Assembly: GCF_002854065.1 (NCBI RefSeq)
Contig: NZ_CP024153.1
From: Escherichia coli
Lineage (GTDB): Bacteria > Pseudomonadota > Gammaproteobacteria > Enterobacterales > Enterobacteriaceae
DNA length: 64,000 nt
Reading direction: 5' to 3' (one strand)
Shown here one piece after another: positions 60,101 to 64,000 of the stretch. The position numbers are program-made. Within the stretch, counting starts at the first letter, position 1. Every line of letters begins with the position of its first letter.

Positions 60101-63100
60101 TATGGTATGATGCTTACCGCATCTGTAGGAAAGACGACTCAGCATACCGCAGTCAATGTTTCATTGTTGTACCTGTAGATCTCAATCTTCCAGAGCGTAT
60201 TCAGGAAAATCAGGCCAGGGTTCTGGATATCTGGTGTGGCGCTTCCGGCCTTGTATCTGGGTTATTCATGGTCTCGATCCAATAATTGATCCCAAGGAGA
60301 TCATAGTGAGATCCAAAAGAGATCCCCGGATCGCTCCAGCATGCGCTGTAACTGGCTTTAACGTCTGTCTGGATCGACTGCGGAATGTAAAATGTTGACT
60401 GTTATATGCATAATCTAATACTGTGATATGCAACGGTATTTACTGAGGTATGTATATCTGTTGACTGCGATACGTATTACTACATCCTTTTGTGGATAAC
60501 CGTTGAGGATCAAGATGACGAGCGAAAATAATAGCTTACTTCTGAACCTTCAGGAAGTTGATAAGACAACCGGTGAAGTTGTTAAGCTGGATGTCAACAG
60601 CACCAGTACCGTGCAGCCAGTAGCGCTCATGAGACTCGGTCTCTTCGTCCCAACTCTGAAATCAACAGGGAAGAGCAAGGCGAACCGGAAAAACGTTACA
60701 GACGCGACTGAGGAGCTTGTACAGCTGTCCATTGCCAAAAGCGAAGGATACACTGACGTTAAGATCACCGGTTCGCGTCTTGATATGGACACGGATTTTA
60801 AAGTCTGGCTGGGGATAATTCGCTCCATGTCGGAGTATGGGGTAAAAAGTGACACCCTGGAACTGTCGTTCGTCGAATTCGTTAAGATGTGCGGATTTGA
60901 CTCCCGTCGTTCAAACAAAAAAATGCGCGATCGCATCAGTAATTCCCTGTTTAAACTCGCCTCGGTTACGCTGAAGTTCCAGAGCGAGACCAAAGGATGG
61001 ACCACCCATCTGGTGCAGTCAGCCTATTATGACATCAACGAGGATATCGTTGAGATCAAGGCTGAACCTAAGCTGTTTGAGCTTTACCACATGGACAGAA
61101 GGGTACTTCTGCGGCTGAAAGCCATTGACGCCCTGCAGCGCAAGGAATCAGCCCAGGCGCTTTATACCTACATCGAAAGTCTTCCCCAGAATCCTGCACC
61201 TATTTCCATGAAACGGATGCGTGACCGGCTGAATCTCACCTCAAATGTCTATACGCAGAACCACACGGTGCGTAAGGCGATGGAGCAGCTGCGGGATATT
61301 GGTTATCTGGATTACACTGAGTTTAAACGTGGCCGAGCCACCTATTTCAGCGTGCATTATCGCAACCCCAAACTCATCAGTGGTCCTGTGAAGGTTCCGC
61401 GCAAAGAGGAAGAAGAGAAGGCGCCAGAGCAAAATTATGACGAAGTCATTAAGGCGCTGAAGGCTGCTGGCATCGATCCCCTTAAACTGGCCGAAGCTCT
61501 CTCAGCGATGAAGCCAGAAAATTGACTGTCATATGTGATTTCAGGCCGTGATACGCAGATATTGACTACGGTATGCGGGTTTAACGGCGATATTCCCAGG
61601 TCTGTGCACTGCTCCACACGTGTTAACATGCCACAGTCAATTTTTCAGTAAAGCTCTATACCCCTTACGAAAATCTCAATCGGATGGGCTTTGTTGAATA
61701 AATCGAACTTTTGCTGAGTTGAAGGATCAGATCACGTATCTTCCCGACAACGCAGACCGTTCCGTGGCAAAGCAAAAGTTCAAAATCACCAACTGGCCCA
61801 CCTACAATAAAGCCCCCATCAACCGTGGCTCCATAACTTTCTGGCTGGATGATGAAGCTATTCAGGCCTGGTATGAGTCAGCAACACCTTCTTCACGAGG
61901 CAGACCTCAGCGCTATTCTGACCTTGCCATCACGACTGTGCTGGTCATTAAACGCGTATTCAGGCTGACCCTGCGCGCTGCGCAGGGCTTTATTGATTCC
62001 ATTTTTTCTCTGATGAACGTTCCGCTACGCTGCCCGGATTACAGCTGTGTCAGCAGGCGGGCAAAGTCGGTTAATGTCAGTTTCAAAACGCCCACCCGGG
62101 GTGAAATCGCACACCTGGTAATTGATTCCACCGGGCTGAAGGTCTTCGGTGAAGGCGAGTGGAAAGTCAAAAAGCATGGCCAGGAACGCCGCCGTATCTG
62201 GCGTAAGCGGCATCTCGCCGTTGACAGTAAAACACATGAAATCATCTGCGCTGACCTGTCGCTGAACAATGTGACGGACTCAGAAGCCTTCCCGGGTCTT
62301 ATCCGGCAAACTCACAGAAAAATCAGGGCAGCATCGGCAGACGGCGCTTACGACACCCGGCTCTGTCACGATGAACTGCGGCGTAAGAAAATCAGCGCCC
62401 TTATCCCTCCCCGAAAAGGTGCGGGTTACTGGCCCGGTGAATATGCAGACCGTAACCGTGCAGTGGCTAATCAGCGAATGACCGGGAGTAATGCGCGGTG
62501 GAAATGGACAACAGATTACAACCGTCGCTCGATAGCGGAAACGGCGATGTACCGGGTAAAACAGCTGTTCGGGGGTTCACTGACGCTGCGTGACTACGAT
62601 GGTCAGGTTGCGGAGGCTATGGCCCTGGTACGAGCGCTGAACAAAATGACGAAAGCAGGTATGCCTGAAAGCGTGCGTATTGCCTGAAAACACAACCCGC
62701 TACGGGGGAGACTTACCCGAAATCTGATTTATTCAACAAAGCCCCGTTGATGCGTCAATACCGTAGGTAAATTTAGCAACTAGAAACCATACCATTATTG
62801 GCGGCAAAGTAATTGCAAATAAAAATGCTAAGCCTCTTTCTCTATCGTCCATTTCAGCGCTCCTTTTTTGGTTCCCAGACTTTATAGCCGTTACGTTCAA
62901 CCTCTGCTTTTGCCGCTTTGGTTTTACCCGGTTCTGCTATCGAACGTAGGAGGATCAGCGTTTCAATAGCGAGTGATTCATGCAACATCATCTGTCCTGC
63001 CGGTGGGAATGTTACGCCAGATAGCGTTTCGGTTATTGCCTTCAGCTCATCGCGCAGTGAGCCAAAATCCGCATCTGAAGCACGGTCAAAAAGGTAATCC

Positions 63101-64000
63101 AGTTTGCGATTTACGTCGCTCAGCTGGTTGGTAACTATTTTCAACCCGGACTCCAGATCACCTGGGCCAGCTTCAAGGCAGCGCCGCAGATACTCTGACC
63201 GATTACCACCTGAAACCTGGTCTATATAGGCCAAAAGTTCATCTGATACTTTTGCGGTTATTGTTGGCATTCAGCCCTCACTTTGTGCATTTTTTAAACG
63301 AAAAAAGGGTGTCTAATACGGTGAAATCATAGTATTACCAAAGTAATAAATAAAAAATGTTTTAAATCAGTAAGTTAGATTAGATTTGTAATACCTGGGT
63401 AATACCGCAGCATGATTAAACTTGGTTTTTTTCTTTTAAATCAGTGAGATAGCGTGATTTATCACGCTGCGTTAGGTGTATAGCAGGTAACGGGATAAAA
63501 AATCATCTTTTTTTGGTAGGGCGATCACCGTAGGTTAAGGGTCATTTGGCTAAAAAGCGTCCTATTCTTTGATGGTCATGCTTGCATGACCATCTGAGCA
63601 ACCAAAACTACAGATAAACTACAAAAAACGTTTTGCCTTAGTGTTGGCAGACTACAAATAGACTACAATAAGACTACAAAGAAACTACAAAAACCGTGAC
63701 AGACTACAAAGAGACTACAATAAGACTACAAAGAAACTACAAAAACCGTGACAGACTACAAAGAGACTACAAGAAAACTACAGATAAACTACAAAACTCG
63801 ATTGACCCCTTCTTACGAGTGTTGTAGAGTCATTTTCATACAACGGAGGGGGTTATGAATAAACCAGCAGATCTGAAACCCCGCAACTTATCGGCTGCTG
63901 TCAGATTGCGCCTAAATGAAATGAACCACGGCAGCCTGGCGGCTGCAAATTGAAAACCGCCCCGGTTCGTCCTGTTGTTGCCGCACGCCCCGCAGAATAT

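What the first reader, a model, noticed from the sequence alone, without database searches (positions are those of the whole stretch)
62733..63270. RHH-like protein followed by a small hydrophobic ORF whose end is clipped by IS903
The 138-aa protein has an RHH-like N-terminus. One nucleotide after its stop begins a small ORF (MDDRERGLAFLFAITLPPIMVWFL...) whose stop codon lies inside the IS903 inverted repeat, so its native C-terminus is unknown. A regulator plus small membrane peptide pair is reminiscent of toxin-antitoxin or exclusion modules.
Basis: inference. Interest (0 to 1): 0.4.

Follow-up and report, generated by a model that had tools for sequence, protein, structure and literature searches.

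The report
IS903-truncated IncN traK–traJ transfer-gene remnant
The "regulator plus small membrane peptide" is a leftover of the well-known IncN plasmid DNA-transfer operon: an intact traK gene followed by the first 36 codons of the traJ coupling-protein gene, cut off by IS903B. It is ordinary, not a toxin–antitoxin or exclusion module.

Summary
A 138-aa ORF lies at 62854–63270 (− strand). One nucleotide after its stop, a small hydrophobic ORF starts at ATG 62852, and its stop (62735–62733) lies inside the right inverted repeat of IS903B.

The small ORF is the first 36 codons of traJ, the VirD4/TrwB-type coupling protein (509 aa in intact IncN plasmids). It is 34/36 identical to intact TraJ. 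Its hydrophobic stretch is TraJ's first transmembrane helix, and the last three codons and the stop come from IS903B.

Homology to IncN begins exactly at the IS end. To the right lie the IncN oriT, 14 phased ACTACAR repeats and a stbA 5′ stub cut by an IS91-family element. TraI, the rest of TraJ, StbB and StbC are absent from the window.

The same IncX1-pir/IS903B/traJ′ junctions occur in about 93–97 plasmid records. This is already known biology, and interest is low.

The parts
61687..62743 (+). IS903B (IS5 family), 1057 bp, with perfect 18-bp terminal inverted repeats and a transposase ORF at 61719–62687. It forms the junction between IncX1 pir-side DNA on the left and the IncN remnant on the right. 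There is no 9-bp target duplication.
   Evidence: Searches give the repeats, the length and the flanks (AATCGGATG versus CCGTTGATG). One search gives the IS5-family transposase match (E 3e-104). Searches show the annotation as IS903B.
62733..62852 (-). traJ′ is the 5′ stub of the IncN type IV coupling protein gene. Codons 1–36 (62852–62745) and the first base of codon 37 (62744) are native. Codons 37–39 (GLC) and the stop are read from the IS903B inverted repeat. The stub encodes only transmembrane helix 1 of TraJ.
   Evidence: 34/36 identity to pHKU1 TraJ residues 1–36 (tblastn E 8e-17). DNA homology ends at the IS end; intact TraJ has TrwB_AAD_bind at residues 113–489; hydropathy peaks at residues 7–26 and 56–75 of intact TraJ.
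62854..63270 (-). traK is intact and encodes the 138-aa IncN relaxosome (Dtr) accessory protein. It has an N-terminal RHH DNA-binding domain (about residues 2–34) and a C-terminal region shared with TrwA.
63332..63405 (.). Three GTAATAC motifs lie just upstream of traK, one inverted at 63332–63338 and two direct at 63388–63394 and 63399–63405. They are candidate TraK operator or binding sites; this is an inference.
   Evidence: locate the motifs. One search shows them conserved between the window, pHKU1 and pAVS0247-B while the surrounding intergenic sequence diverges.
63451..63492 (+). This is the oriT core. An inverted repeat AGCGTGAT-TT-ATCACGCT (63451–63468) is followed by GCGTTAGGTGTATAGCAGG. 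The layout matches the R388 nic region (inverted repeat, then …TTGTCTATAGCC). The expected nick site is before ATAGC; that position is recalled from memory and was not tested here.
   Evidence: repeat I5; the block is near-invariant in three IncN-type plasmids; one IR position differs in pHKU1. R388 oriT for comparison; pCU1 oriT is described as hairpin–TAG–pentanucleotide–nic.
63571..63594 (.). A perfect 11-bp inverted repeat, GATGGTCATGC-TT-GCATGACCATC, lies within the oriT region. Its role is not determined.
   Evidence: repeat I3; the core TCATGCTTGCATGA is conserved.
63607..63794 (+). Fourteen ACTACAR repeats sit on one strand at 11-bp phasing, in groups of 2+4+4+4, with a 52-bp unit present about 2.9 times. 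They are the IncN counterpart of the R388 stbDRs (StbA-binding repeats); this is an inference by analogy.
   Evidence: 14 of the window's 16 matches cluster here, and 0 of 100 shuffles reach 16; the R388 stbDRs are 9-bp repeats spaced by 2 nt upstream of stbA.
63802..63830 (+). A sigma-70-like promoter, TTGACC-17-TAGAGT, lies upstream of stbA.
   Evidence: This is a consensus match only.
63855..63922 (+). stbA′ is the first 22 codons of the IncN stbA gene. Homology to IncN-type stbA ends at 63922.
63923..64000 (+). This is the end of an IS91-family element (IS1294-like) that truncates stbA. The window ends inside it.
   Evidence: the same sequence lies about 240 bp upstream of an IS91-family transposase gene in unrelated plasmids.

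Best explanation
The region is a roughly 1.18-kb relic (62744–63922) of the IncN (MOBF11) DNA-transfer and leading-region junction. It is trapped between IS903B and an IS91-family element in a mosaic IncX1/IncF-type resistance plasmid.

In an intact IncN plasmid the order is traI < traJ < (1 nt) < traK – oriT – stbA > stbB > stbC. There, TraK binds oriT through its N-terminal RHH domain and helps the relaxase TraI nick the DNA and hand it to the coupling protein TraJ.

In this window traK and oriT are intact. traJ is cut after codon 36, so the 39-codon ORF is a pseudogene stub encoding TraJ's first transmembrane helix fused to three IS-derived codons. traI, the T4SS genes, stbB and stbC are absent, and stbA is cut after codon 22. 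The relic therefore cannot drive transfer by itself.

At most it supplies a cis-acting oriT and TraK. A co-resident IncN plasmid providing TraI, TraJ and the T4SS could then mobilise the carrier. This last step is inferred and was not shown here.
For: - **Identity of traK.** It is 93–100% identical to proteins named 'traK protein' in about 1,280 plasmid records and in the protein database.
- **Intact loci.** pHKU1 and pAVS0247-B both show MobF relaxase < T4CP (509 aa) < 138-aa gene, then stbA > stbB > stbC, with the same 1-nt gap.
- **Identity of the small ORF.** It matches TraJ residues 1–36 at 34/36.
- **Breakpoint.** DNA homology to IncN stops exactly at the IS903B end.
- **Intact TraJ.** It carries TrwB_AAD_bind at residues 113–489 (E 1e-80) and two N-terminal hydrophobic helices.
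- **Homology to TrwA.** BLASTP gives 49% identity over the C-terminal 37 aa (E 4e-10), and hhalign gives probability 98.5% (E 3.7e-15) over 109 columns. R388 has the same synteny and the same 1-nt gap.
- **oriT conservation.** The inverted-repeat and nic block is near-invariant across three IncN variants.
- **Missing genes.** Nothing similar to TraI, the rest of TraJ, StbB or StbC is found in the 64-kb window.
- **Literature.** TraK is a Dtr factor, a predicted RHH protein that binds oriT (PMC10269834). Its deletion lowers pCU1 transfer about 100-fold, and it is proposed to give TraI its oriT specificity (PMC2943615).
Against: - Pfam has no model that matches TraK.
- The full-length monomer model is poor (pLDDT 57.7).
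- The RHH fold rests on an artificial tandem construct and a shallow alignment of nine sequences.
- Mobilisation in trans was not tested, and no paper was found that tests it for these plasmids.
- Small IncX1 tet(X4) plasmids were reported as non-transferable on their own (PMC7190383). Whether those plasmids carry this relic was not checked.
- Many other plasmids keep only oriT plus 51 codons of traK. Persistence of such relics therefore need not reflect selection.
Confidence: 0.95

Rival explanations
1. This is a type II toxin–antitoxin-like or exclusion module, with an RHH regulator or antitoxin controlling a small membrane toxin or exclusion peptide.
For: The RHH N-terminus gives weak similarity to RHH antitoxin models: MazE-type E 3.6e-5 and VapB E 0.056. 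The two ORFs are tightly coupled, with a 1-nt gap. The downstream product is small and hydrophobic.
Against: The antitoxin scores are far below the curated cut-offs, at 24.1 versus 65 bits and 14 versus 60 bits. The small ORF is the first 36 codons of a 509-aa ATPase gene, and its small size is created by IS903B. All uninterrupted loci have traJ–traI downstream. There is no PADLOC match. TraK is homologous to TrwA, which is a relaxosome protein.
Confidence: 0.01
2. The truncated product has gained a new function. The 39-aa TraJ-TM1 peptide, still translationally coupled to traK, is made and inserts in the membrane. There it interferes with the coupling protein or T4SS of IncN plasmids, as a dominant-negative or exclusion-like effect, or has some other membrane activity.
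For: The start codon, the AAGGAG Shine-Dalgarno sequence inside the traK 3′ end and the 1-nt coupling are all intact. The identical junction persists in at least 93 plasmid records.
Against: Nearly all junction copies seen are near-identical, as a single ancestral event would give, so they provide no independent evidence of selection. The peptide lacks TM2 and the whole cytoplasmic domain. Other relics lose traJ entirely and part of traK. No data on expression or phenotype are available.
Confidence: 0.03

Closest known systems
TraK–TraJ–TraI Dtr operon and oriT of IncN plasmids (pKM101, R46, pCU1; MOBF11)
   Same: traK is 93–100% identical at the protein level. oriT, the 1-nt traK/traJ spacing, the divergent stbA and the repeat array are all collinear with intact IncN plasmids.
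   Different: Only traK and oriT are complete. traJ is cut after codon 36 by IS903B. traI and the T4SS are absent. stbA is cut after codon 22 by an IS91-family element. The ACTACAR repeat array is longer than in pHKU1.
[quoted passage not shown]
   Same: The two proteins are homologous over nearly their full length (hhalign probability 98.5%), with the C-terminal 37 aa 49% identical. The gene order trwC < trwB < (1 nt) < trwA – oriT – stbABC is the same.
   Different: The N-terminal and middle regions have diverged too far for BLASTP to detect. TraK is 138 aa and TrwA 121 aa. The oriT sequences and repeat motifs differ: ACTACAR here versus TTGCATCAT in R388.
F-plasmid TraY, the RHH relaxosome accessory protein (PDB 9f0x)
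   Different: TraY is a single chain carrying two RHH repeats, whereas TraK has one RHH and was modelled here as a linked dimer. Sequence identity is 13%, and TraY has no TrwA-like C-terminal domain.
RHH antitoxins of type II TA systems (RHH-type MazE, VapB)
   Same: The β-α-α DNA-binding motif at the N-terminus gives weak profile similarity.
   Different: Scores are below the curated cut-offs. There is no toxin partner. The genomic context is conjugative DNA processing.

Membership tests
TraK/TrwA relaxosome accessory proteins (MOBF11 Dtr) | Sequence homology to characterised members (IncN TraK, R388 TrwA) | tested here: met
   The protein is 93–100% identical to IncN 'traK protein'. Against R388 TrwA, hhalign gives probability 98.5% (E 3.7e-15) and BLASTP gives E 4e-10.
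TraK/TrwA relaxosome accessory proteins (MOBF11 Dtr) | [quoted passage not shown] | tested here: met
TraK/TrwA relaxosome accessory proteins (MOBF11 Dtr) | Gene lies next to oriT, immediately upstream of the T4CP and MOBF relaxase genes, and divergent from stbABC | tested here: met
   This holds in the intact relatives pHKU1, pAVS0247-B and R388. In the window oriT and the start of traJ are present, but the rest has been removed by IS elements.
TraK/TrwA relaxosome accessory proteins (MOBF11 Dtr) | Specific binding to oriT and stimulation of relaxase nicking and transfer | not testable with these tools
   Literature only: PMC2943615 and PMC10269834 citing Li & Christie 2020.
Type IV coupling protein (VirD4/TrwB/TraJ) | N-terminal sequence of IncN TraJ, including transmembrane helix 1 | tested here: met
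   34/36 identical to pHKU1 TraJ residues 1–36. A hydrophobic segment spans residues 7–26.
Type IV coupling protein (VirD4/TrwB/TraJ) | Cytoplasmic nucleotide-binding and all-alpha domains (TrwB_AAD_bind) | tested here: not met
   The window ORF ends after 39 codons. The domain occupies residues 113–489 of intact TraJ, and no other TraJ-like sequence is in the window. The ORF is therefore a gene fragment and not a functional member.
Type II toxin–antitoxin module with RHH antitoxin | Antitoxin matches a curated antitoxin model above its cut-off | tested here: not met
   NF050104 scores 24.1 bits against a cut-off of 65. NF050181 scores 14 bits against 60. Pfam gives no hit.
Type II toxin–antitoxin module with RHH antitoxin | Adjacent cognate toxin gene that is conserved as a small ORF in uninterrupted loci | tested here: not met
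   In uninterrupted loci the neighbour is the 509-aa T4CP. The stub has no Pfam, NCBIfam or PADLOC match.
IS903B (IS5 family) | Length of about 1057 bp, 18-bp terminal inverted repeats and an IS5-family transposase | tested here: met
   It is annotated as IS903B in matching records.
IS903B (IS5 family) | 9-bp direct target duplication flanking a simple insertion | tested here: not met
   The flanks AATCGGATG and CCGTTGATG match at 4 of 9 positions. The left flank is IncX1 DNA and the right flank is IncN DNA. The copy therefore marks a recombinant or deletion junction, not a simple insertion.

The most novel reading that the evidence does not exclude
The 39-aa TraJ-TM1::IS903 fusion peptide is still translationally coupled to an intact traK. 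It could be expressed and act in the membrane, for example by interfering with the coupling protein or T4SS of incoming or co-resident IncN plasmids. Alternatively, the intact traK and oriT could have been retained because they make these otherwise non-conjugative resistance plasmids mobilisable by IncN helpers.
Probability: 0.05. Interest if true: 0.35.

Novelty: already known. Interest (0 to 1): 0.08.

Why it matters
There is little new biology here: the genes, their order and their functions are textbook IncN/IncW conjugation biology. The practical points are modest.

1. The relic keeps a complete IncN oriT and its accessory protein on IncX1/IncF mosaic resistance plasmids typed as non-mobilisable. 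These plasmids may therefore be mobilisable by IncN helpers, and replicon or relaxase typing would miss this.
2. Automated annotation calls traK a 96-aa 'hypothetical protein' from an internal start in these plasmids, which hides the RHH domain.
3. The case shows how an IS truncation can create a deceptive 'small membrane peptide' ORF.

Tried and rejected
- **Family libraries.** Pfam gave no hit for TraK or the stub. NCBIfam gave only sub-threshold RHH hits. PADLOC gave nothing.
- **PDB sequence searches.** The single sequence and the profile returned only coiled-coil and compositional matches to the middle region. These were rejected as uninformative.
- **Full-length monomer model.** Confidence was too low (pLDDT 57.7) for a fold search. 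It was replaced by a tandem N-domain construct.
- **Stub versus R388 TrwB.** BLASTP found no similarity. The N-terminal transmembrane regions of these coupling proteins are too diverged, so identification of the stub rests on IncN TraJ alone.
- **Search for the reciprocal junction.** No record in PLSDB holds IS903B inserted at the same traJ site with the other junction, in other words an ancestral simple insertion (0 records).
- **Primary literature.** Li & Christie 2020 and Paterson et al. 1999 are not held. Papers on tet(X4)/IncX1 plasmids do not mention this relic.
- **traK promoter.** The simple promoter scan found no consensus promoter for traK.
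Full report
**1.

The − strand carries a 138-aa ORF from ATG 63270 to a stop at 62856–62854. One nucleotide later, at 62852, an ATG opens MDDRERGLAFLFAITLPPIMVWFLVAKFTYGIDASTGLC*.

IS903B lies immediately to the left, at 61687–62743. It is 1057 bp long, has perfect 18-bp terminal repeats GGCTTTGTTGAATAAATC, and carries an IS5-family transposase ORF at 61719–62687. Matching records annotate it as IS903B. The small ORF's stop (62735–62733) and its last three codons are read from the right repeat.

**2. What the uninterrupted locus looks like**

A DNA search of 62745–63300 against plasmids found 1,272 records. In intact IncN plasmids such as pHKU1 (95.3% identity) and pAVS0247-B (96.9%), the 138-aa gene is followed after one nucleotide by a 509-aa 'type IV secretion system DNA-binding domain-containing protein'. 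That gene is followed in turn by a MobF relaxase. On the other side stbA, stbB and stbC run divergently.

A three-way DNA alignment shows homology between the window and IncN running from 63300 down to CCGT… at 62744. It stops exactly where IS903B begins.

The translated pHKU1 gene begins MDDRERGLAFLFAITLPPVMVWFLVAKFTYGIDPSTAKYL…, which is 34/36 identical to the window ORF. tblastn of pHKU1 TraJ against the window gives residues 1–36 at 62852–62745, E 8e-17. Intact TraJ carries TrwB_AAD_bind at residues 113–489 (E 9.7e-81) and two N-terminal hydrophobic helices at about 7–26 and 56–75.

The 'small hydrophobic ORF' is therefore the first transmembrane helix of the IncN coupling protein. Its small size is an artefact of the IS.

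**3. The 138-aa protein is TraK**

It is 93–100% identical to proteins that NCBI and UniRef name 'traK protein'. The family is narrow: an exhaustive HMMER scan of 1.84 billion representatives found 28 proteins, of which only about five are full-length relatives at 30–57% identity.

It is homologous to R388 TrwA. BLASTP gives 49% identity over the C-terminal 37 residues (E 4e-10). A profile comparison gives probability 98.5% (E 3.7e-15) over 109 columns spanning both termini. R388 has the same gene order, including the one-nucleotide gap between trwA and trwB.

On the literature side, TraK of pKM101 and pCU1 is a Dtr accessory factor and a predicted RHH protein. It binds oriT and is needed for substrate transfer (PMC10269834, citing Li & Christie 2020). 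Deleting it lowers pCU1 transfer about 100-fold, and it was proposed to give the non-specific TraI relaxase its oriT selectivity (PMC2943615).

**4. The RHH claim**

- Pfam has no model for this protein.
- NCBIfam gives only sub-threshold hits of residues 4–33 to RHH-type models: MazE-type E 3.6e-5 at 24 bits versus a cut-off of 65, aCcr1, and VapB.
- PDB sequence searches returned only coiled-coil noise.
- The full-length monomer model was poor (pLDDT 57.7), although residues 10–20 and 24–33 were helical after an extended N-terminus.

RHH domains fold only as dimers. I therefore modelled residues 1–38 twice, joined by a Gly/Ser linker, using a matching alignment of nine homologues including TrwA. 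The result was confident (pLDDT 80.9, pTM 0.71) with a strand at 3–7 and helices at 10–20 and 24–34 in each half.

The RHH assignment is therefore supported. The caveat is that it rests on an artificial fusion and a shallow alignment.

**5. The surroundings: a bounded IncN relic**

Several oriT features lie to the right of traK.

- Three GTAATAC motifs at 63332–63405 are conserved across diverged IncN variants. They are candidate TraK sites, by inference.
- The inverted repeat AGCGTGAT-TT-ATCACGCT at 63451–63468 is followed by GCGTTAGGTGTATAGCAGG. This block is near-invariant in three plasmids.
- That block has the same layout as the R388 nic region, an inverted repeat followed by …TTGTCTATAGCC. 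It also fits the hairpin–TAG–pentanucleotide–nic description of the pCU1 oriT. The exact nick position is my recollection and was not tested.
- A second perfect 11-bp inverted repeat lies at 63571–63594.
- Fourteen ACTACAR repeats at 11-bp phasing lie at 63607–63794. By analogy they are the IncN counterpart of the R388 stbDRs that StbA binds (PMC3098194).

stbA starts at 63855, but homology ends at 63922 after 22 codons. What follows is the end of an IS91-family element. No TraI, no further TraJ, and no StbB or StbC sequence exists anywhere in the 64-kb window.

To the left of IS903B are the IncX1-type Rep (60503–61525; Rep3_N and Rep3_C) and the F-type sopAB genes.

**6. Origin of the junction**

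The 9-bp flanks of IS903B differ (AATCGGATG versus CCGTTGATG). This copy therefore marks a recombination or deletion junction between IncX1 and IncN DNA, and not a simple insertion.

- The right junction (IS903B/traJ′) is present in 93 plasmid records.
- The left junction (IncX1/IS903B) is present in 97 records.
- Many of these are tet(X4)-type IncX1/IncFIA/IncFIB hybrids typed as non-mobilisable.
- The reciprocal junction expected from an ancestral simple insertion into traJ was found in no record.

**7. How it most likely works**

Shown: traK and oriT are intact, traJ′ and stbA′ are fragments, and the relaxase, the coupling-protein body and the T4SS are absent.

Inferred: the relic cannot promote self-transfer. 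TraK may still be made from its own promoter and bind oriT. A co-resident IncN plasmid could supply TraI, TraJ and the T4SS in trans and mobilise the carrier.

I found no experiment addressing this. Relics with only oriT plus 51 codons of traK are common in Klebsiella plasmids, so mere hitch-hiking is equally possible. The stub peptide could be translated, since its Shine-Dalgarno sequence AAGGAG and its coupling to traK are intact. Nothing suggests that it has a function.

**8. Verdict**

The description is correct, and so are the RHH call and the statement that the ORF is clipped by IS903. The toxin–antitoxin or exclusion reading is refuted by the intact loci. This is a known gene pair in a degraded state, so novelty is 'already known' and interest is low.

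Noticed in passing
window 63907–64000: stbA is cut after codon 22 (IncN homology ends at 63922) by the end of an IS91-family (IS1294-like) element, and the window stops inside that element. In the otherwise identical pYPE12-101k-tetX4-type plasmids stbA continues for 111 codons. This window's plasmid therefore carries an extra IS event.
   Followed up: partly
window 62854–63144 versus 62854–63270: In the matching RefSeq plasmids PGAP annotates traK as a 96-aa 'hypothetical protein' (WP_001471781.1) from an internal start (residue 43 of the 138-aa ORF), which drops the RHH domain. Conservation of residues 1–42 in homologues at 30–57% identity and in TrwA supports the 138-aa start at 63270.
   Followed up: yes
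window 63117–63300 (and related plasmid records H72–H81, H149–H158): Many plasmids, mostly from Klebsiella pneumoniae, retain only the IncN oriT side plus the first 51 codons of traK. They share a common breakpoint at about window 63117, and the region is unannotated. This is a second, independent and widespread IncN oriT relic.
   Followed up: partly
window 63648–63796: The ACTACAR repeat array contains a 52-bp unit present about 2.9 times (94% match). It is longer than in pHKU1 and pAVS0247-B, so the number of putative StbA-binding repeats varies between IncN lineages.
   Followed up: partly
window 61678–61686 and 62744–62752: IS903B has no 9-bp target duplication. The left flank is IncX1 DNA and the right flank is IncN DNA, which implies IS-mediated recombination or deletion. 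No plasmid with the reciprocal junction was found.
   Followed up: yes
window 61518–61536 and 61626–61644: A 19-nt inverted repeat (84% complementary, 89 nt apart) lies just downstream of the IncX1 rep gene and before IS903B. Its role is unknown, and it may belong to the IncX1 replication region.
   Followed up: no
window 50680–59783: The neighbourhood is a mosaic. It holds F-type sopA/sopB partition genes (57637–59783, −), IS3-family transposase ORFs (51762–52574 and 56346–57185), an IS30-family transposase (52668–53702) and a tyrosine recombinase (50680–51468). This fits an IncX1/IncFIA-type hybrid resistance plasmid.
   Followed up: partly
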